This document shows, piece by piece, positions 3,885-51,670 of a stretch of DNA of 64,000 nucleotides. Each line of letters opens with the position of its first letter. The first letter of the stretch is position 1. The notes under the pieces are model-generated. The model worked only from the letters and a program-made list of their open reading frames with translations, was not told the DNA's origin and did no database searches. The translations under genes and the position numbers were made by a program. Source of the stretch: Escherichia coli (lineage in GTDB: Bacteria > Pseudomonadota > Gammaproteobacteria > Enterobacterales > Enterobacteriaceae); the NCBI RefSeq assembly GCF_003018255.1, contig NZ_CP027440.1, one strand, 5' to 3'.

Positions 3885-4943
3885 ATGTTTAATACTGTAA
3901 AAATATCCAGTTGTGAGTTAATCAACGCTGACTGCCTGGAATTTATCCGGTCGTTACCCGAAAATTCTGTTGACCTGATAGTCACGGACCCGCCGTACTT
4001 TAAAGTGAAGCCTGAGGGCTGGGATAACCAGTGGAAGGGCGACGATGACTACCTGAAGTGGCTGGACCTGTGTCTGGCGCAGTTCTGGCGGGTGCTGAAA
4101 CCTGCCGGAAGTCTTTACCTGTTCTGTGGCCATCGCCTGGCATCTGACATTGAAATCATGATGCGTGAACGCTTCAGTGTGCTGAACCATATTATCTGGG
4201 CAAAGCCGTCCGGACGCTGGAACGGGTGCAACAAGGAAAGCCTGCGGGCGTATTTCCCCGCCACAGAGCGCATTCTGTTCGCGGAACATTATCAGGGGCC
4301 GTATCGCCCGAAAGATGCCGGGTATGAGGCGAAGGGCAGGGCACTGAAACAGCATGTGATGGCCCCGCTGATTTCTTACTTTCGTGATGCGCGTGCTGCC
4401 CTGGGGATAACGGCAAAACAGATAGTGGATGCCACAGGAAAGAAAAACATGGTGTCGCACTGGTTCAGTGCCAGTCAGTGGCAGCTACCGAACGAAAGCG
4501 ATTATCTGAAATTACAGGCGCTGTTTGCCCGGGTGGCAGAAGAGAAGCATCAGCGGGGGGAACTGGAGAAGCCCCACCACCAGCTGCTGGAGACGTATAC
4601 TTCACTGAACCGGCAGTATGCGGAACTGCAGAGTGAATATAAGCATCTGCGGCGGTATTTTGGCGTGACGGCGCAGGTGCCGTACACGGATGTGTGGACG
4701 CATAAACCGGTGCAGTACTATCCCGGGAAACATCCGTGCGAAAAACCGGCAGAAATGCTGCAGCAGATAATCAGCGCGAGCAGTCGTCCGGGTGACCTGG
4801 TTGCAGATTTTTTCATGGGGTCGGGTTCGACAGTCAAAGCCGCGATGGCGCTGGGGCGTCGTGCAACTGGCGTTGAGCTGGAGACTGAACGTTTTGAGCA
4901 GACGGTCAGGGAAGTTCAGGATTTAGTCAGTCAGAACGGATGA
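3885..4943 (+). CDS. orphan DNA N6-adenine/N4-cytosine methyltransferase (beta-class, N6_N4_Mtase type)
   Basis: 352 aa. DPPY catalytic motif near the N-terminus (VTDPPYF) and the AdoMet motif FMGSGST near the C-terminus. No adjacent restriction gene. Confidence 0.9.
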   Translation: MFNTVKISSCELINADCLEFIRSLPENSVDLIVTDPPYFKVKPEGWDNQWKGDDDYLKWLDLCLAQFWRVLKPAGSLYLFCGHRLASDIEIMMRERFSVLNHIIWAKPSGRWNGCNKESLRAYFPATERILFAEHYQGPYRPKDAGYEAKGRALKQHVMAPLISYFRDARAALGITAKQIVDATGKKNMVSHWFSASQWQLPNESDYLKLQALFARVAEEKHQRGELEKPHHQLLETYTSLNRQYAELQSEYKHLRRYFGVTAQVPYTDVWTHKPVQYYPGKHPCEKPAEMLQQIISASSRPGDLVADFFMGSGSTVKAAMALGRRATGVELETERFEQTVREVQDLVSQNG

Positions 4944-4983: not shown

Positions 4984-5059
4984 GGCCCTTTAGCTCAGTG
5001 GTGAGAGCGAGCGACTCATAATCGCCAGGTCGCTGGTTCAAATCCAGCAAGGGCCACCA
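4984..5059 (+). tRNA. tRNA with CAU anticodon, ileX/ileZ-like (Ile2 lysidine type; Met cannot be excluded)
   Basis: Hand-folded cloverleaf: acceptor GGCCCTT/AAGGGCC, D arm GCTC..GAGC, anticodon loop CTCATAA, T arm GCTGG-TTCAAAT-CCAGC, encoded CCA. Closely resembles my recollection of E. coli ileX. Confidence 0.85.
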
Positions 5060-5068
5060 TATCACATA

Positions 5069-5145
5069 CCGCCATTAGCTCATCGGGATAGAGCGCCAGC
5101 CTTCGAAGCTGGCTGCGCGGGGTTCGAGTCCTCGATGGCGGTCCA
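5069..5145 (+). tRNA. tRNA-Arg (UCG anticodon)
   Basis: Hand-folded cloverleaf: acceptor CCGCCAT/ATGGCGG, D arm GCTC..GAGC, anticodon stem CCAGC/GCTGG with loop CTTCGAA, T loop GGTTCGAGTCC, encoded CCA. Confidence 0.8.
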
Positions 5146-5423
5146 TTATCTGCATTATGCGTTGTTGGTTCTGATGAGTGAATCATTGTCTTTTGAGCAA
5201 CAGGCTATCATATAAGATAGCCTCAGACTTCCTTGTTTATTCTCGCCGGATGCTTCGTAGATATTTGCAGGCATCTGTATGCAGGGGTATTATTGCGGCA
5301 TATATCATCCGGAAAAATAAAAACTACATGCTGATCCGGAGATGATAGTTACAAGTCCTCCCGGATCCCGCATATTTACTATATTTTATAGATAATTGTT
5401 CTTGTTAATATGGAGATGGATAA

Positions 5424-5852
5424 ATGTATTGCCGTGCTGTACCTGTTCTTGTTTTGATATTAGCCAGTCTGACAACTGGCTGCACAAAAGATGTATCGAC
5501 AAATAATCATGATGCTTCTCTGTATCACTCAGATAAATTAATAACGTCGCAAAAATTGAGCTCATCGGAACGTACCCCTGATGCCAGTGAAGAAATCCGG
5601 CAGTATGCCATTCAGGTCAGGAAAGCCATAGAAGAACAGTTAAAGGATGCGAGTAAGTATTCAGGAAAAGAGTGTTCACTGAGAATGTATATGGCCCCGA
5701 ATGGTCTTCTGCTACGGGTTAAAAGAGAAAGCGGTGATCCCGATTTATGTCGTGAAGCGATGAATGCAGTAAAGAATGCTGATATACCATCACCACCGTC
5801 TTCAGGAGTATATAAAGCATTTAGAAATGGCGTGCTGGATTTTAAACTCTGA
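5424..5852 (+). CDS. lipoprotein carrying a TolA C-terminal (domain III)-like domain
   Basis: 142 aa. Signal peptide plus lipobox LTTG|C. The C-terminal ~85 aa align with the remembered E. coli TolA C-terminus (YSGKECSLRMYMAPNGLLLRV..GDPDLCREAMNAV...PSPPSSGVYKAFRNGVLDFKL vs YAGKTCTLRIKLAPDGMLLDI..GDPALCQAALAAA...PKPPSQAVYEVFKNAPLDFKP). Confidence 0.8.
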   Translation: MYCRAVPVLVLILASLTTGCTKDVSTNNHDASLYHSDKLITSQKLSSSERTPDASEEIRQYAIQVRKAIEEQLKDASKYSGKECSLRMYMAPNGLLLRVKRESGDPDLCREAMNAVKNADIPSPPSSGVYKAFRNGVLDFKL

Positions 5853-5906
5853 CAGGGGGAGAAGATTTTCTCCTGTCCTGATGATTTTGGGGCGCTGGAA
5901 AGATAT

Positions 5907-6164
5907 TGTGCTGTGAAGTGTTAAATCCCTCACAATTCAGTAAGTTGACAGTTGCCTGTCAGACTGAGCATTTGTTAAAAAAATTTCGCATGGTGAATCC
6001 CCCTGTGCGGAGGGGCGACTGGTGAACGGTATGATCTCTTTGATGATCGTAAGCGAGAATACGCGGGTTTGGTGTCACCGGGCTGAACTCACCGGGAGGC
6101 ACCCGGCACCATGCTCATGGTGATACAGAAATGCGGCTTCAGCCCCTCTCCGGAGGGGCTTTCT
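5907..6164 (+). ncRNA. solitary copy (unit A) of the ~250-bp structured-RNA unit
   Basis: Same four conserved boxes as the 7885-8904 array. Closing stem 5988-5995 GCATGGTG / 6107-6114 CACCATGC. Terminator GCCCCTC-TCCG-GAGGGGC at 6141-6157. Confidence 0.5.
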
Positions 6165-6170
6165 TATGGA

Positions 6171-6239
6171 CAAAAAAAGCCCGCGCTGGGAGACGCGGGC
6201 GGCAAGGAATAAACAATAAAACGTGAAGTAATACTTCAA
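6171..6239 (-). ncRNA. candidate small RNA, copy 1 (promoter to intrinsic terminator)
   Basis: Minus strand: TTGCGC (6275-6270), 18-bp spacer, TATTAT (6251-6246), then ~69 nt ending in GCCCGCG-TCTCCCAG-CGCGGGC plus U7. Paralogue at 8911-8989. Confidence 0.5.
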
Positions 6240-6320
6240 CTGGCGAATAATACCCGACAGTAATCACTCTGCGCAATAGCGTGGCCTTTTTCGAATTGCG
6301 GGCTGTAGTCTCCCTTCTGC

Positions 6321-6484
6321 CGGGTGTCCTGGTTGCAGATTTCTTCATGGGGTAGGGTTCGGCAGTTAAAGCAGCGATGGTGCTGGGGCGTCGTGCAACT
6401 GGCGTTGAGCTGGATACCGGGCGTTTTGAACAGACTGCGCAGGAAATCAGGGATGTATTTAGCGGGAGCGGTTTGCAGAAGTAA
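6321..6484 (+). pseudogene. 3'-terminal remnant of a second DNA methyltransferase gene
   Basis: Nucleotide-level similarity to 4789-4943 (CCTGGTTGCAGATTT..TTCATGGGGT.GGGTTCG...GGGGCGTCGTGCAACTGGCGTTGAGCTGGA). Has an in-frame TAG (ATG GGG TAG) and lacks the 5' ~900 bp. Confidence 0.8.
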
Positions 6485-6547
6485 TCTCCCAAAATGCCAT
6501 TTTTGGAATATACTGGTATTAAGTCTTTTTGCTCAGGTTAATTCAAA

Positions 6548-7273
6548 ATGGATGTTGCCTGCTCTGTGGTCCTGATTCGCTATCCGATAGATATTTTTCT
6601 TGAAAAAGAAAAAGTTTCACTCGATGCCGGAAGTGTTATGCTTGTTGCCAGAAATATAAGAGGGCTTTTCTGTGCTTATGCCGACAGAGTGAAAATGGCA
6701 GATATAAGTAACAGCGTCGTCAATCAGTATCTGGAAAGGGAGTGTGAACTGACGGAGTATACACCGACAAAAATGCCTCTTTATTTGATGTCTGATATTT
6801 ACAATACGGAACTGGCGGAGGCTTTAATAACCCAGCATAGTGAATCCAGTGATACTTTGAAGGATTTCTCTGTTATAACCGCATTTTCATGTATCTCCTT
6901 ATTTGCAACAGACAGACGTCTGCCATTATTTTTGTCCGGTGCTGTAAATAATATCAGCTGTAAAGTAAGGGCTATAATTCAGACCGACATATCGGCAGGC
7001 TGGATGCTTGGTGTGATTGCATTACAATTGCATATGAGCGAAAGCTTGTTGAAGCGAAAACTTAAGGATGAAGGTTATAGCTTTAGTCGGTTGTTGCTGG
7101 AGGAGCGAATGCGTGTTGCTGTTAATCTTGTATGTTTCCAGCGAGAGTGTGGACAAGCGATAGCGGAAAAATGTGGTTACTCAAGTAAGTCCTACTTCAT
7201 TTCTGTATTTCACCAGTATTATGGTGCACCACCTGAGAGCTATGCATATTTGCAGAAAGCAGACGTTATCTGA
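6548..7273 (+). CDS. AraC/XylS-family transcriptional regulator (prophage Psr/PatE-like)
   Basis: 241 aa. The C-terminal double HTH is typical of AraC (LLKRKLKDEGYSFSRLLLEERMRVAVNLV...IAEKCGYSSKSYFISVFHQYYGAPP). AT-rich moron. Confidence 0.8.
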   Translation: MDVACSVVLIRYPIDIFLEKEKVSLDAGSVMLVARNIRGLFCAYADRVKMADISNSVVNQYLERECELTEYTPTKMPLYLMSDIYNTELAEALITQHSESSDTLKDFSVITAFSCISLFATDRRLPLFLSGAVNNISCKVRAIIQTDISAGWMLGVIALQLHMSESLLKRKLKDEGYSFSRLLLEERMRVAVNLVCFQRECGQAIAEKCGYSSKSYFISVFHQYYGAPPESYAYLQKADVI

Positions 7274-7362
7274 TGTTTTTTCATCAGGCATATATTGATT
7301 GACTGTATTAGATATAGTCTGAATGTGTTCAGCATAAAAAGTTATAATCATTTGGTGTTTGC

Positions 7363-7641
7363 GTGAATATTGATGAGAAAATCAGATGTAGCCAACTGTT
7401 ACAGCGTATTGAAGCCGTCAATGTGGAACGAACAAAGGTCTTCAGTCGTCTGACAGTTTTATTTTGTACCCCTGATCGACGTTCAGGTCAGGAGATGGTT
7501 CTTCTGGATGTAGATGCACTTCGGAACGTCTGTGAGGAGTTCACCGCGGCTAATTCGGAGTTACTGAGTCTTGTTCAGGAGTACAACAGAATTGCAGGTA
7601 GTAACGGTTTTGATGAAATCAAAATTATATCCCGTGGATAA
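7363..7641 (+). CDS. hypothetical protein
   Basis: 92 aa, GTG start. Followed by the CCTGTAT...ATACAGG hairpin plus T-run (7651-7680). No family recognised. Confidence 0.4.
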   Translation: MNIDEKIRCSQLLQRIEAVNVERTKVFSRLTVLFCTPDRRSGQEMVLLDVDALRNVCEEFTAANSELLSLVQEYNRIAGSNGFDEIKIISRG

Positions 7642-7884
7642 AACATATCCTGTATATTTATGTTGTTACATACAGGCGCTTTTAGTATCTGCCGCACGGC
7701 AGTTGTACTTCAGAATAAGATGCTTTTGTGACTGGTGGTGTTGTATCTGGGGTTAGCCAGTAGGCAGGTTCAGAGAGTCCGGTGGTAATTATGTGTATGC
7801 AGTGGTTGTTGCTGTACCGTGGGCAAGTTCTGGAACTGGCTTCGTCCATTGTAGATGATTGTTAGCTGGATATCAGTTACCTCA

Positions 7885-8904
7885 TGGAAATGTTAAATGA
7901 CTCACAATTCGGTTGATGGGCTATTGTCTGATCGATGGAAGTCTTGTAAAAACGAGCCAGCATAGTGAATCCCCCTGTGCGGAGGGGCGTCTGACATGGT
8001 CTCCATAGCGATGGTCACAATACGCAGATTCAGTAGTCAGGCTGAATCTACCGGGAGGCACCCGGCACTATGCTGCTTATGGTGTATACATAGCGATCGG
8101 CCCCTCTCCGGAGGGGCTTTTTTTGTGCGGGAAAAGGCTGTGTTGTTAAGTGTTAAATTCCTCACAGTTCGGATGGTTGATGCTTGCCTGTCTGAGGGGG
8201 AGTTGTTAAAAAAGTTCTGCATGGTGAATCCCCCTGTGCGGAGGGGCGACTGGTGTGATTTGCATCTTTTCTGTTGTAGGCAATGCAAACGCGGGTTCAG
8301 GGACGCCAGACTGGACTCACCGGGAGGCACCCGGCACCATGTTCATGATGATACAGATACGCAGTGTCAGCCCCTCTCCTGAGGGGCTTTTTTATGCAGG
8401 AAAAACGCTGTGTTGTGAAATGTTAAATTCCTCACAGTTCAGATGGTTGATGCTTGCCTGTCTGAGGGGGAGTTGTTAAAAAAGTTCTGCATGGTGAATC
8501 CCCCTGAGCGGAGGGGCATATCAGCGCAGGTGTTTCTACTCTATCCTTTCTGTGCGGGTTCAGGTGCTGATACTGAACTCACCGGGAGGCACCCGGCATC
8601 ATGCATATGGTTAACAGACACGTAGCGAAGCCCCTCTCCGGAGGGGCTTTTTTATGCAGGGAAAAGGCTGTGTTGTGAAATGTTAAATTCCTCACAATTC
8701 ATGAGGTTGATGATTGTCTGATTGATGAGGAGTTTGTTAAAAAAAACGGGCATGGTGAATCCCCCTGTGCGGAGGGGTGATATCGTATCATTTCCTGTGT
8801 GGCCGACTGATATCACGGACATTTGTTCACCGGGAGGCACCCGGCACCATGCAGTATACAGAGATTAGGCATACATCCAGGCTCCTCATCGCAGGAGCCT
8901 TTTT
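7885..8904 (+). repeat. tandem array of four ~240-270-bp structured-RNA units (B 7885-8124, C 8125-8393, D 8394-8653, E 8654-8904)
   Basis: Each unit has box 1 TGTTAAAT.CCTCACA(A/G)TTC, box 2 TTGTTAAAAAA..GCATGGTGAATCCCCCTGTGCGGAGGGGC, box 3 CACCGGGAGGCACCCGGCACCATG, and an intrinsic terminator with a T-run. The ORFs crossing the units differ in frame and length. Confidence 0.85.
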
Positions 8905-8910
8905 ACATGT

Positions 8911-8989
8911 AAAAAAAAACCGCTCCTGGGAAGAGCGGTTGGCAAGGAAGCAAGGAATAAATAACAAAACGTGAAGTAATTTATTCAGC
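8911..8989 (-). ncRNA. candidate small RNA, copy 2 (promoter to intrinsic terminator)
   Basis: Minus strand: TTGCGC (9025-9020), 18-bp spacer, TATTAT (9001-8996), then ~79 nt ending in AACCGCTC-TTCCCAG-GAGCGGTT plus U9. Shares the core TTACTTCACGTTTT.TT.TTTATTCCTTGC with copy 1. Confidence 0.55.
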
Positions 8990-9137
8990 ACCCTAATAAT
9001 ACCTTAGAGTAATCACCTTGCGCAACTGTAAGGGCGTATTTCTTTTTTGCGGGCTGTTTTTCTGTGTGACTTTTGTGTTTCCGGTGGTCAGCCCGTGCCT
9101 TCTCTGACTCAGAACATTATCCCGGCCGGGAGGATTC

Positions 9138-11102
9138 ATGGCATTTAAACACTACGATGTGGTCAGGGCGGCATCGCCGTCAGACCTTGCTGAACGACTG
9201 ACACAAAAACTGAAGGAGGGCTGGCAGCCATTTGGCAGTCCGGTGGCCATCACGCCTTATACCCTGATGCAGGCCATTGCGGCGGAAGGTGATGTCACCA
9301 CACCAGTGGCGGTGACCGGTAATGAGGGTAAGGTGGTGGCTGTCAGTGCCACCAGCGACCCGGAGTATTACTTTGTTGTGGTTCTGGCAGGGCAGTCAAA
9401 TGGCATGTCGTATGGTGAAGGTCTTCCGCTGCCGGAGACATATGACCGTCCGGACCCGCGCATTAAGCAGCTGGCGCGCCGCAGTACGGTGACACCGGGC
9501 GGTGTTGCCTGTAAATATAACGACATCATTCCGGCGGACCATTGTCTGCATGATGTGCAGGACATGAGCCGTCTTAACCATCCGAAAGCGGACCTGTCAA
9601 AGGGGCAGTACGGTACCGTGGGGCAGGGGCTGCATATCGCCAAAAAATTGCTGCCGTTTATACCGGCGAATGCGGGCATTCTGCTGGTTCCGTGCTGTCG
9701 TGGTGGTTCAGCGTTCACCACCGGAGCTGATGGCACATACAGTGACGCGAGTGGTGCCTCGGAGAATTCAACCCGCTGGGGTGTGGACAAGCCGCTGTAT
9801 AAGGACCTTATCGGTCGAACAAAAGCAGCACTGAAGAAGAACCCGAAAAATGTGCTGTTTGCCGTGGTGTGGATGCAGGGGGAATTTGATTTTGGCGGTA
9901 CGCCGGTAAATCACGCAGCACAGTTTGGTGCGCTGGTTGATAAATTCCGTGCAGACCTGGCGGATATGGCAGGCCAGTGCGTCAGTGGCTCTGCTGGCAG
10001 TGTTCCCTGGATATGCGGGGACACGACGTATTTCTGGAAGCAGAAGAACGAATCCACGTACCAGACGGTGTACGGCAGCTATAAAAACAAAACGGAAAAG
10101 AATATCCATTTCGTACCGTTCATGACGGATGAGAACGGGGTGAATGTGCCGACGAACAAACCGGAAGAAGACCCGGACATTCCGGGTATCGGGTATTACG
10201 GTTCGAAATGGCGTGACAGCTCAGCCACCTGGACGTCACAGGACAGGGCGAGCCATTTCAGCACCTGGGCACGCCGGGGGATTATTTCCGACCGTCTGGC
10301 AACGGCGATTCTGGTGCACGCCGGGAGAACCGCTGAATTCATTACCGGAAAACAGCCTGATATGGTGAAGCCCACCGTACCTTCCGGTGAAGGTCCGGAG
10401 AGAGAGGCGGAAGCCCCGGTCAGTAACCGAACCCTGATGAGTCTGCTGGCATCCGGCGAAGACCTGGCATCACAGGGCTGGCGCTATTATCACAAACCGG
10501 CGGGCGGAGACAGTGTTAACAAAAACATTGCTGAAGCGGTGGTCAGTGATGCGGGGGCTACGGGAGGTAAGGCCCTGCAACTGAACAAACCGGAAAACCA
10601 CATCTGGTTTCTGGAGCATGATGCAGCCGGACAGGGTGCGGAGTTACTGAAGAAGGGCGGACGTGTGAGCGTACGGTTTAAGTTGCCGGGTTCACTGGTG
10701 CCGAATCAGTTTGCCCTGGGCATTTACTGGCAGTTGTCGTCCCTGCCGGAGGGGGTGACGCTGTCAGGAGAAGGTAACGATATGCTGATGTCTTTCTTCC
10801 TGCAGACGGATACGACGAACCTGAACGCGATGCATCACAGGAAGCCGAATGCGAAGCTGGATACATTCGGGGTCTTTGATAACGGATGGCACACGCTGGC
10901 TTTTGAGTTTGCCGGAAACAACAGCATTCAGGTGACACCAGTACTGGATGAGAAACGGGGAGCGGCGTTCACACTGGTGAAGTCACCGGCATCGGGGGCG
11001 GCGGACAAACTGCAACTGACCGATATATCAAAATCGGCGACGTATACGCTGCTGATTGACAGCATTGCGGTGGAAGTGAACAGCACAGACACTGCGGCAT
11101 GA
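9138..11102 (+). CDS. NanS-p-type prophage sialate O-acetylesterase (DUF1737 + SASA esterase + C-terminal lectin-like domain)
   Basis: 654 aa. The N-terminus MAFKHYDVV...GWQPFGSP is DUF1737-like. The block VVLAGQSNGMSYG is a GDSL/SASA-type catalytic motif. It sits upstream of the lysis genes, as for nanS-p genes of EHEC lambdoid prophages. Confidence 0.8.
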   Translation: MAFKHYDVVRAASPSDLAERLTQKLKEGWQPFGSPVAITPYTLMQAIAAEGDVTTPVAVTGNEGKVVAVSATSDPEYYFVVVLAGQSNGMSYGEGLPLPETYDRPDPRIKQLARRSTVTPGGVACKYNDIIPADHCLHDVQDMSRLNHPKADLSKGQYGTVGQGLHIAKKLLPFIPANAGILLVPCCRGGSAFTTGADGTYSDASGASENSTRWGVDKPLYKDLIGRTKAALKKNPKNVLFAVVWMQGEFDFGGTPVNHAAQFGALVDKFRADLADMAGQCVSGSAGSVPWICGDTTYFWKQKNESTYQTVYGSYKNKTEKNIHFVPFMTDENGVNVPTNKPEEDPDIPGIGYYGSKWRDSSATWTSQDRASHFSTWARRGIISDRLATAILVHAGRTAEFITGKQPDMVKPTVPSGEGPEREAEAPVSNRTLMSLLASGEDLASQGWRYYHKPAGGDSVNKNIAEAVVSDAGATGGKALQLNKPENHIWFLEHDAAGQGAELLKKGGRVSVRFKLPGSLVPNQFALGIYWQLSSLPEGVTLSGEGNDMLMSFFLQTDTTNLNAMHHRKPNAKLDTFGVFDNGWHTLAFEFAGNNSIQVTPVLDEKRGAAFTLVKSPASGAADKLQLTDISKSATYTLLIDSIAVEVNSTDTAA

Positions 11103-42660: not shown

Positions 42661-42714
42661 AACGATAACTCCGTACATTTGAAAATTATCGCCACCTTCA
42701 GGTTCCAATCATCA

Positions 42715-42791
42715 TGGTGGCGAACTGTGCGGGGTTGGAACTACCGGGTACGGAAACCGGCGAGCCTTTCGGCTCCCCCACACAGCCCGCC
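42715..42791 (-). ncRNA. C4-type antisense RNA (P1/P7 immI-like), 77 nt
   Basis: 16-bp closing stem GGCGGGCUGUGUGGGG/CCCCGCACAGUUCGCC followed by ACCA. Inner hairpins are GAGCC-GAAA-GGCUC and CCGG-UUUCCGUAC-CCGG. Single-stranded AGUUCCAA and the loop are complementary to sites flanking the element on both sides. Confidence 0.65.
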
Positions 42792-42824
42792 ATAAATCGC
42801 GAATGTGACTGTGCAAACGATATG

Positions 42825-42901
42825 AAAAAAGACGCGGGCGCGTCTCATATCGCTCCGTAAACATCCGGGGTTCCAATCCCGACGCCAGATTTTGCTGACG
42901 C
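42825..42901 (-). ncRNA. short terminated leader RNA carrying the a1/b1 decoy sites
   Basis: From the predicted TSS (~42901) to the terminator GACGC-GCCC-GCGUC plus U6 (42846-42825). Contains GAUUGGAACC (42878-42869) and UUACGGAG (42860-42853). Confidence 0.5.
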
Positions 42902-51555: not shown

Positions 51556-51583
51556 AAAAAAAAGCCCGCTCATTAGGCGGGCT
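51556..51583 (-). terminator. trp attenuator (3:4 terminator hairpin)
   Basis: Minus strand: AGCCCGCCTAATGAGCGGGCT followed by U8. Confidence 0.95.
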
Positions 51584-51625
51584 GGGTATCTGATTGCTTT
51601 ACGCATGGTGAATACACTGCCCGTT

Positions 51626-51670
51626 TCAGGAAGTGCGCCACCAACCTTTCAGTACGAAAATTGCTTTCAT
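51626..51670 (-). CDS. trpL: trp operon leader peptide
   Basis: Minus strand ATGAAAGCAATTTTCGTACTGAAAGGTTGGTGGCGCACTTCCTGA = [14 protein letters not shown], with the tandem Trp codons. Confidence 0.97.

What the first reader, a model, noticed from the sequence alone, without database searches (positions are those of the whole stretch)
5907..6320. Solitary fifth RNA unit plus a duplicated ~400-bp module bracket the AraC-regulator island
Segment 5907-6320 (unit A, the convergent minus-strand sRNA candidate, and ~45 bp ending GCGGGCTGT) is homologous to 8654-9060 (unit E, sRNA candidate copy 2, ...GCGGGCTGT). Between the two copies lie a methyltransferase 3' remnant, an AraC regulator, orf92 and three more RNA units. 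The RNA units therefore appear to act as recombination substrates through which cargo is gained in the Q-to-holin interval. Unit A begins ~55 bp after the cargo gene that follows the phage tRNAs, which is the slot that holds stxAB in Stx phages. From memory (uncertain), the sequence TCACAATTCAGT.AGTTGACAGTTGCCTGTCAGACTGAG also lies just downstream of stx2B in Stx2 phages. If so, this RNA would be part of the stx 3' flank.
Basis: partly seen in the sequence, partly recalled or inferred. Interest (0 to 1): 0.55.

Follow-up and report, generated by a model that had tools for sequence, protein, structure and literature searches.

The report
Duplicated prophage small-RNA pair module
The repeated ~400-bp segment is the already published pair of convergent Hfq-binding small RNA genes that sits just after stx (or other cargo) in Shiga-toxin-type prophages, and it is present twice here because two related prophages carrying different cargo were joined by one non-homologous crossover.

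Summary
Window 5907-6320 and 8654-9060 are homologous (66-68% identity, blastn E 3e-32). Five plus-strand units all match Rfam STnc100 (120-172 bits, cut-off 47).

None of the components is new:
- The plus-strand RNA is STnc100, also called EcOnc27, sRNA103 or EcOnc05.
- The convergent minus-strand RNA is EcOnc08/21/42 of Tree et al. 2014, differing at 4 of 73 nt.
- This pair of Hfq-binding sRNAs between a moron gene and nanS-p is published, as is STnc100 downstream of stx2.

The recombination idea is only partly right. The island's left junction (6321/6322) joins the 3' end of module A to mid-methylase at a CC microhomology, not through the RNA units. Both single-slot layouts exist: L006 and L023 nearly identical for the AraC half, L086 with a more diverged module for the TolA-like half. 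The composite is in 77 of 5,426 complete E. coli genomes. The units do recombine with each other, giving arrays of 1, 2 or 4 copies and a clean B/E chimera.

This is an ordinary new arrangement of a known kind. Interest is low to moderate.

The parts
3885..4943 (+). Full-length phage DNA methylase, the left conserved flank of the cargo slot
   Evidence: Pfam N6_N4_Mtase, 148.7 bits. 97% identical to the methylase of Stx2_95, L006 and L023.
4984..5145 (+). Phage tRNA pair: ARAGORN calls Met(CAT), which PGAP and 933W annotate as tRNA-Ile (ileZ), plus Arg(TCG)
   Evidence: Homology with the Stx2 phage stops at 5166. The third tRNA of Stx phages (argO) is absent.
5424..5852 (+). Cargo (moron) ORF in the position that holds stxAB in Stx phages: a 142-aa protein with a TolA C-terminal domain and a lipobox-like N-terminus
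   Evidence: Pfam TolA, 80.5 bits. PGAP names it 'tolA'. Translation. The same cargo sits in a single-module prophage, L086.
5907..6171 (+). Unit A: conserved leader (TCACAATTCAG box at 5930) plus the STnc100 sRNA gene with its own intrinsic terminator (6141-6160)
   Evidence: Rfam RF02076 at 5959-6171, 172.4 bits, E 4e-39. Terminator. 91% identical to the stx2B-downstream region of Stx2_95.
6172..6321 (-). Tail A: the convergent minus-strand Hfq-sRNA gene of the EcOnc08/21/42 type. U-run 6178-6172, terminator stem 6200-6179, EcOnc08-equivalent 6246-6174, -10-like TATTAT 6252-6247, -35-like TTGCGC 6276-6271. It is cut at 6321 by the junction.
   Evidence: 4 mismatches in 73 nt against the Sakai Sp4 EcOnc08 Hfq-CRAC peak. 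Terminator. Promoter-like hexamers and a compensated terminator stem across 42 variants. No Rfam family matches it.
6322..6485 (+). Methylase 3' remnant (pseudogene), which marks the non-homologous junction with a second prophage
   Evidence: 82% identical to 4788-4939. Internal stop. PGAP pseudogene. In L006 and L023 the same sequence is the 3' end of an intact methylase.
6548..7273 (+). AraC-type regulator, YdeO/GadX-like (second cargo)
   Evidence: Pfam HTH_18 and HTH_AraC. NCBIfam YdeO, 119.8 bits, below its cut-off. 61% identical to Sakai Sp4 ECs_1087.
7363..7641 (+). orf92, an unknown ORF that travels with the AraC gene
   Evidence: No Pfam or NCBIfam hit. Present with AraC in L006 and L023 and deleted together with it in L007 and L048.
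7896..8910 (+). Tandem array of four STnc100 units (B 7931-8126, C 8190-8399, D 8460-8659, E 8721-8910). Period is about 260-270 nt. Each unit has its own leader box and terminator.
   Evidence: Rfam scores of 119.5 to 141.3 bits. Pairwise identity 67-79%. The structure is kept, with 11 of 47 pairs showing compensatory changes. Related prophages carry 1 or 2 units.
8911..9137 (-). Tail E: a complete copy of the convergent minus-strand sRNA region next to nanS-p. Terminator 8940-8918, -10-like 9001-8996, -35-like 9025-9020, and a further promoter-like site at 9144-9116.
   Evidence: The terminator stem is a different sequence (AACCGCTC/GAGCGGTT) but is still a perfect hairpin followed by a U-run.
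9138..11102 (+). nanS-p-type sialate O-acetylesterase, the conserved right flank of the module
   Evidence: Pfam DUF1737, SASA and DUF6645. Annotated as yjhS, NanS or SASA esterase in Stx phages.

Best explanation
The ~400-bp module is the known small-RNA pair of lambdoid and Stx prophages. On the late-operon strand it carries a STnc100 gene (also called EcOnc27, sRNA103 or EcOnc05) with its own leader and intrinsic terminator. Convergent to it is a second Hfq-binding RNA of the EcOnc08/21/42 type. In 933W and Sp5 the same position holds AsxR instead. The pair sits between the cargo (moron) gene downstream of Q, methylase and the tRNAs, and the conserved nanS-p esterase gene.

The module occurs twice in this window because two related prophages were fused by one illegitimate crossover:
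- Parent 1 layout: methylase, tRNAs, TolA-like cargo, module, nanS-p.
- Parent 2 layout: methylase, AraC, orf92, one or more STnc100 units, tail, nanS-p.
- The crossover joined the 3' end of parent 1's module (window 6321) to the middle of parent 2's methylase gene (6322).

The result is one late region with two cargo slots, each closed by a module. Separately, the STnc100 units in the second slot changed in number (1, 2 or 4) by unequal homologous crossing-over in their invariant blocks.

Inferred, not shown: in the lysogen each unit is transcribed from its own promoter and stops at its own terminator, giving Hfq-bound regulatory RNAs. After induction, Q-modified polymerase reads through all of them into nanS-p and the lysis genes. 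The minus-strand copy in module A has lost its upstream part and can at most make the short 3' form.
For: Identity of the RNAs:
- Five full-length STnc100 hits.
- 933W has STnc100 at 207.7 bits, followed at once by AsxR on the other strand.
- The EcOnc27 northern probe of Tree et al. lies inside that STnc100.
- The Sakai Sp4 EcOnc08 peak differs from window 6246-6174(-) at 4 of 73 nt.
- Tree et al. report Hfq-CRAC peaks and northern bands for EcOnc05, 08, 21, 27 and 42. They describe convergent sRNAs between the moron CDS and the conserved ORF in eight Sakai prophages.
- EDL933 transcribes its 11 STnc100 copies without induction.

Position:
- The module fills the stxB-to-nanS-p gap in Stx2_95, the Stx1 phage and 933W. 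In stx-negative phi296 it follows the tRNAs directly.

Fusion:
- Three-way comparison of the junction sequences.
- Parent-2 layout with an intact methylase in L006 (98.1% identical) and L023 (99.2%). Parent-1 layout in L086.
- The composite is fixed in 77 of 5,426 complete genomes, most of them at 99% identity or more (64 of all matching records).

Unit-to-unit recombination:
- L023's single unit is B-like up to GTGAATCCCCCTGTGCGGAGGGG and E-like after it.
- L006 has B followed by E, without C and D.
- A four-gamete test on 127 units finds incompatible segment combinations.
Against: - No expression data exist for this strain. Promoters of the units are inferred only from conserved boxes and from data in Sakai, EDL933 and LT2.
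- The true parents are not in hand. L086 has the parent-1 layout, but its module is only 85% identical to module A.
- The direction of the array change (expansion or contraction) is unknown.
- Whether AraC-orf92 was lost in L007 or gained elsewhere rests on parsimony alone.
- The reported northern size of EcOnc08/21/42 (~271 nt) fits neither promoter-like site I found (about 73 nt and about 190-200 nt).
Confidence: 0.85

Rival explanations
1. One reading: the RNA units are the recombination substrates through which cargo such as the AraC island, and by extension stx, is gained in the interval between Q and the holin gene. Homologous crossovers in units on either side of a cargo insert or swap it.
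For: - Homology between this prophage and others resumes exactly at the unit's leader (5897-5930) after different cargo.
- Crossovers inside invariant unit blocks are shown directly by the L023 chimera and by segment incompatibilities.
- Unit A's 5' half and unit E's 3' end each resemble 933W EcOnc27.
- In Enterobacter prophages, STnc100 units flank the lysis cassette and an Ivy cargo gene.
Against: - The junction that created this island lies outside the units and has only a CC microhomology.
- The AraC-orf92 deletion junction in L007 also lies outside the units, with an AT microhomology.
- In single-slot prophages the left flank of the cargo is the methylase and tRNAs, not a unit.
- A shared breakpoint at the unit edge is expected for any set of different insertions at one site, so it does not by itself show crossover in the unit.
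Confidence: 0.25
2. In-place tandem duplication: a single prophage duplicated its interval from mid-methylase to the module. The cargo in one copy was later replaced, and the copies then diverged.
For: The junction type, with the end of a segment joined to an internal point upstream, is the classic signature of a tandem duplication.
Against: - The two methylase 3' ends are only 76-82% identical and the two modules only 66-68%, although the composite is 99% or more conserved in most of its carriers.
- The second-copy sequence is 98-99% identical to prophages with an intact methylase and no first slot (L006, L023). This fits two different parents better than divergence in place.
Confidence: 0.07
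3. The module is mainly a cis-acting insulator and not a pair of trans-acting sRNAs. Back-to-back terminators would stop transcription from cargo promoters reaching nanS-p and the lysis genes in the lysogen. They would also stop antisense transcription entering the cargo. On this view the array adds redundancy.
For: - There are 15 terminator-like sites in 5150-9200, against 3.0 +/- 1.9 expected.
- Every unit ends in a strong hairpin plus T-run, and the tail supplies one on the other strand.
- Morons classically carry their own promoter and terminator (cited).
Against: - A terminator needs about 40 nt. It does not need a 200-nt RNA with invariant internal hairpins kept by compensatory change.
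- These RNAs bind Hfq, are destabilised without it, and their relatives (PasD, AsxR, AgvB) have trans targets.
- The two roles are not mutually exclusive.
Confidence: 0.2

Closest known systems
STnc100 (Rfam RF02076), also known as EcOnc27 / sRNA103 in Sp5 and 933W and EcOnc05 in Sp4; related to PasD of EPEC
   Same: All five plus-strand units match the full 206-position model at 120-172 bits. They have the same position (after the cargo, before nanS-p) and the same strand as the late operon. They share the same invariant hairpins and terminator.
   Different: There are five copies in one prophage, four of them in tandem. Sakai and EDL933 have one per prophage, with 11 dispersed copies in EDL933. 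The central regions of the five units are only 67-79% alike.
EcOnc08 / EcOnc21 / EcOnc42, Hfq-binding RNAs of Sakai Sp4 and Sp15 (Tree et al. 2014)
   Same: The tail A minus strand differs at 4 of 73 nt from the EcOnc08 peak. It has the same convergent orientation and the same position next to the STnc100 terminator.
   Different: Copy A is cut at 6321, so it lacks the upstream part of the longer (~271 nt by northern) RNA. Copy E is a diverged allele with a CCTTGC duplication and a different terminator stem. This RNA has no Rfam family.
AsxR / AgvB anti-sRNAs (RF02703, RF02702)
   Same: They occupy the same slot and strand: convergent to STnc100, about 282 bp 3' of stx2B in Sp5 and 933W.
   Different: There is no sequence or model match in the window (E up to 10). 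The window carries the EcOnc08-type allele instead. No anti-sRNA function can be assumed for it.
Moron slot of lambdoid phages downstream of pR' and Q (Juhala et al. 2000, as cited by Tree et al. 2014), including the stxAB slot
   Same: Same order: Q, methylase, tRNAs, cargo, sRNA pair, nanS-p, holin.
   Different: Here there are two successive slots, made by a fusion and separated by a methylase fragment.

Membership tests
STnc100 (RF02076) | Score at or above the curated gathering threshold (47 bits) across the whole covariance model | tested here: met
   Five hits of 119.5 to 172.4 bits, all covering model positions 1-206.
STnc100 (RF02076) | Conserved secondary structure: closing helix, two invariant hairpins and a terminator, kept across copies | tested here: met
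   RNAalifold on units A-E plus 933W and Sp4 predicts 47 pairs, 11 of them with compensatory changes.
STnc100 (RF02076) | Expressed as a discrete Hfq-associated RNA of about 200-250 nt | not testable with these tools
   Shown only for homologues: EcOnc27 at 235/247 nt and Hfq-dependent, and an EDL933 northern and RNA-seq.
EcOnc08/21/42 convergent sRNA | Sequence identity to the Sakai Hfq-CRAC peak regions | tested here: met
   Copy A has 69 of 73 identical positions to EcOnc08. Copy E shares the core ATTACTTCACGTTTTGTT.TTTATTCCTTGC.
EcOnc08/21/42 convergent sRNA | Minus-strand intrinsic terminator abutting the STnc100 terminator | tested here: met
   Terminators at 6200-6179 and 8940-8918, each with a U-run. 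Three stem types are all perfectly paired across 42 variants.
EcOnc08/21/42 convergent sRNA | Full-length transcript (~271 nt by northern) including the EcOnc21-type upstream region | tested here: inconclusive
   Copy E has the whole region up to nanS-p. Copy A keeps about 75 nt upstream of the EcOnc08 part and is then replaced by the methylase remnant. The 5' end of the RNA is not known.
AsxR / AgvB anti-sRNA (RF02703 / RF02702) | Match to the covariance model, with the conserved ~42-nt 3' region | tested here: not met
   No hit at E up to 10 in 5150-9200. The positive control 933W gives AsxR at 88.1 bits.
Stx-phage stxB-to-nanS-p intergenic module | Collinear homology to the region between stxB and nanS-p | tested here: met
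   351 phage records match, mostly Stx-converting. Stx2_95 is 91.4% identical over window 5930-6331, starting 46 nt after stx2B.
PatE / PsrA / PsrB class of prophage AraC regulators | Orthology to PatE, PsrA or PsrB and control of GAD / LEE genes | not tested
   The only evidence is AraC HTH domains, YdeO/GadX-like similarity below the curated cut-offs, and 61% identity to Sp4 ECs_1087.

The most novel reading that the evidence does not exclude
The invariant blocks of STnc100 and its convergent partner may act as conserved recombination linkers. These blocks are the 5' hairpin GTGAATCCCCCTGTGCGGAGGGG, the core CACCGGGAGGCACCCGGCA, and the terminators. On this reading they would define and mobilise cargo slots, including stx, among lambdoid phages of many Enterobacterales. 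Tandem arrays would generate chimeric sRNAs with new central, possibly target-binding, regions. This would give one answer to the published open question of why these sRNA pairs sit at the moron site.
Probability: 0.25. Interest if true: 0.5.

Novelty: new member of a known kind. Interest (0 to 1): 0.22.

Why it matters
The finding places this stx-negative prophage of LEE-negative STEC lineages (O91:H21, O113:H21, O178:H19, O22:H8) in the same late-region framework as Stx phages. A TolA-domain protein and a YdeO/GadX-like regulator occupy the slots where toxin genes sit elsewhere. One prophage carries five STnc100 paralogues.

This matters modestly:
- It is a clean, datable example of how a late region acquires a second cargo slot.
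- It shows directly that sRNA genes can be reshuffled by crossovers in their invariant blocks, producing chimeric regulators and copy-number variation.
- It does not reveal a new RNA class or a new mechanism.

Tried and rejected
- I looked for the minus-strand RNA in Rfam at E up to 10. Only chance-level hits appeared (OmrA-B, RsaOG, suhB). AsxR, AgvB and Esr41 were absent, although 933W is positive for AsxR. I therefore rejected calling it AsxR or AgvB.
- I first took EcOnc15 (Sp15) as a candidate for the tail RNA. It lies upstream of stx1A, in the StxS region, so I rejected it.
- I first read EcOnc42 as antisense to the nanS-p start. Its coordinates probably carry an offset like the ~135-nt shift I measured at Sp5 between the paper's numbering and NC_002695.2; I did not calibrate it at Sp15. 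With such a shift it matches the EcOnc21-type region, as the paper's own homologue column says.
- I looked for a sigma-70 promoter for the ~271-nt form. The only sites were TTGCGC-18-TATTAT (giving ~73 nt) and ATGCCA-17-GATAAT (giving ~190-200 nt). Neither fits 271 nt, and this is left open.
- I looked for the AraC island in phage records. Only the methylase part matches (13 records), so the island is so far seen only in integrated prophages and IMG/VR contigs.
- No protein question here bears on the finding.

Full report
**1. What is in the sequence**

The window region 3.8-11.2 kb is the late-regulatory region of a lambdoid, Stx-phage-like prophage. The order of features is:
- DNA methylase at 3885-4943.
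- Two tRNAs at 4984-5145.
- A 142-aa ORF with a TolA C-terminal domain at 5424-5852.
- Unit A plus its tail at 5907-6321.
- A methylase 3' fragment at 6322-6485.
- An AraC-type ORF at 6548-7273.
- orf92 at 7363-7641.
- Four tandem units, B to E, at 7896-8910.
- A second tail at 8911-9137.
- A nanS-p-type esterase gene at 9138-11102.

This order rests. RefSeq annotation of a 99.8% identical O91:H21 chromosome agrees and places Q, RusA and the holin on either side.

**2. The observation**

The two ~400-bp segments are homologous. They share 302 of 458 aligned columns, and blastn gives 67.8% over 388 nt with E 2.8e-32. The alignment score is about 22 standard deviations above shuffled controls.

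All five units are full-length matches to Rfam STnc100, at 120-172 bits against a threshold of 47. They are 67-79% identical to one another. They keep the family's structure, with compensatory changes in 11 of 47 predicted pairs when aligned with the 933W and Sp4 copies.

Only A and E carry the ~150-nt tail. The tail has a minus-strand hairpin followed by a U-run.

Module A runs 9 nt past GCGGGCTGT, to position 6321.

**3. What the RNAs are**

In phage 933W the stx2B-to-nanS-p gap contains STnc100 (207.7 bits). AsxR follows immediately on the opposite strand.

Tree et al. 2014 (PMC4104026) described exactly this arrangement. They reported convergent Hfq-binding sRNAs, EcOnc27 and EcOnc02 (AsxR), 3' of stx2B at the moron insertion site. 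They found equivalent pairs in Sp3, 4, 9, 10, 11, 15 and 17. Their EcOnc27 northern probe lies inside the 933W STnc100.

Their Sp4 entries, EcOnc05 (+) and EcOnc08 and EcOnc21 (-), map onto a module of the window's type. The 73-nt EcOnc08 peak differs from window 6246-6174(-) at four positions. The minus-strand candidate is therefore the EcOnc08/21/42 RNA. That RNA has Hfq-CRAC and northern support, a reported size of ~271 nt, and unknown targets (PMC7873438). It is not in Rfam, and it is not AsxR or AgvB.

Across 42 sequence variants of the tail:
- The core ATTACTTCACGTTTT(G/A)TT(G/A)TTTATTCCTTG was fixed by my search pattern.
- The flanking -35-like and -10-like hexamers stay constant.
- The terminator stem occurs in three fully compensated versions.

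**4. The stx link**

It also occurs 46 nt after the stx2B stop in 933W, Sp5 and Stx2_95.

A total of 351 phage records, mostly Stx1- or Stx2-converting, match the module. STnc100 about 75 nt downstream of stx2 has been reported (PMC12370729). The review by Sy and Tree says stxAB is bookended by StxS and by the AsxR and EcOnc27 pair, and that the reason for this arrangement is unclear.

**5. How the duplication arose**

Three sequences were compared at the junction:
- Canonical module: ...CTTCTGCC|ATTGTCCTGTAAC...
- Methylase: ...AGTCGTCC|GGGTGACCTGGTTGCAG...
- Window: ...CTTCTGCC|GGGTGTCCTGGTTGCAG...

The join is therefore non-homologous, at a CC microhomology. It links the 3' end of a module to the middle of a methylase gene.

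Prophages with the parent-2 layout exist. They have an intact methylase, then AraC, orf92, one or more units, the tail and nanS-p. L006 (strain SMBL) is 98.1% identical and L023 is 99.2% identical. A prophage with the parent-1 layout also exists: methylase, tRNAs, TolA-like ORF, one module and nanS-p (L086).

The two methylase ends are 76-82% identical and the two modules 66-68%. Most carriers of the composite are 99% or more identical to the window (64 of the matching records; 77 of 5,426 complete genomes hold the full composite). This points to a fusion of two different phages and not to an in-place duplication.

L007 and L048 carry the same junction but lack AraC-orf92. Their deletion junction has an AT microhomology that again lies outside the units.

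**6. Do the units recombine?**

Yes, with each other:
- L023 has one unit. It is B-like up to the invariant GTGAATCCCCCTGTGCGGAGGGG and E-like after it.
- L006 has B followed directly by E.
- The window has B, C, D and E.

I also analysed 127 tail-adjacent units, split at their invariant anchors into leader, middle, 3' part and tail. The middle and 3' parts show three four-gamete incompatibilities, and other segment pairs show one each.

Unit A's 5' half and unit E's 3' end each resemble 933W EcOnc27.

It does not hold for the event that brought in the AraC island.

**7. Wider distribution**

The invariant 19-mer of STnc100 is found in many Enterobacterales, including Salmonella, Enterobacter, Klebsiella, Kosakonia, Pantoea, Erwinia and Rahnella.
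- Four-unit arrays occur in Pantoea and Superficieibacter.
- In Enterobacter prophages the units sit both between Q and the holins and after the lysis cassette, next to an Ivy gene.
- EDL933 has 11 dispersed copies, transcribed without induction.
- In Salmonella LT2 the copies have RpoD-bound promoters.
- The C-to-D tandem junction of this window is present in 87 of 5,426 complete E. coli genomes.

**8. Mechanism and confidence**

Shown here:
- The identity of both RNAs.
- Their position relative to stx and other cargo.
- The non-homologous junction.
- The existence of both parental layouts.
- Unit-to-unit crossovers.

Inferred:
- Each unit is an autonomous gene. The conserved TGTTAAAT and TCACAATTC leader lies about 30 nt upstream of the Rfam start, which fits the 235/247-nt EcOnc27 bands.
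- Q-modified polymerase reads through the array after induction.
- The minus-strand copy A is 5'-truncated.

**9. Verdict**

The finding is real and well explained, and its parts are already described. The double-slot layout and the four-unit array are a new arrangement of a known module.

Noticed in passing
window 5424-5852 (+): The ORF in the stx slot encodes a 142-aa protein with a TolA C-terminal domain (PF06519, 80.5 bits) behind a lipobox-like signal (MYCRAVPVLVLILASLTTGC). PGAP names it tolA. A periplasmic TolA-domain-III decoy could block Tol-dependent colicins or filamentous phages. That idea is speculation.
   Followed up: partly
window 6548-7273 (+): The AraC-type regulator is closest to YdeO and then GadX in NCBIfam, below the cut-offs, and is 61% identical to Sakai Sp4 ECs_1087. 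It looks like the PatE, PsrA and PsrB class of prophage regulators of acid resistance and type III secretion. Orthology was not tested.
   Followed up: partly
window 42713-42901 (-) and 51556-51649 (-): There is a C4 antisense RNA (78.9 bits) next to isrK (72.7 bits), as upstream of the antirepressor genes in phage phi296 (L003). A trp operon leader lies at 51.5 kb, which suggests the chromosomal flank.
   Followed up: no
L211 2583-7842 and L157 (Enterobacter prophages): STnc100 units are interleaved with isrI (RF01392) between Q and the holin genes. More units follow the lysis cassette, next to an Ivy (inhibitor of vertebrate lysozyme) gene. So STnc100 marks more than one cargo position in other genera.
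   Followed up: partly
L177 894-2010, L208 6350-7858, L205 110-1688: A Pantoea plasmid, Candidatus Pantoea communis and Superficieibacter each carry four STnc100 units close together (tandem in the Pantoea plasmid). I did not find tandem arrays of this family described in the papers I read.
   Followed up: partly
window 7642-7895: The 250-bp spacer between orf92 and unit B has no ORF or RNA family hit. Its last ~100 nt are retained in L007 after loss of AraC-orf92. It contains a small terminator-like hairpin at 7689-7702.
   Followed up: no
L131 (Sakai Sp5) and L130 (Sp4): The coordinates in Table S2 of Tree et al. 2014 are shifted by about 135 nt at Sp5 relative to NC_002695.2, but are not shifted at Sp4. 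Anyone mapping EcOnc RNAs onto the current RefSeq record needs to correct for this.
   Followed up: yes
window 5146-5166 versus L001 3535-3624: This prophage has only two of the three tRNAs of Stx phages. The tRNA-Arg(TCT) gene, argO, is missing, and homology to Stx2_95 ends 21 nt after tRNA-Arg(TCG).
   Followed up: no
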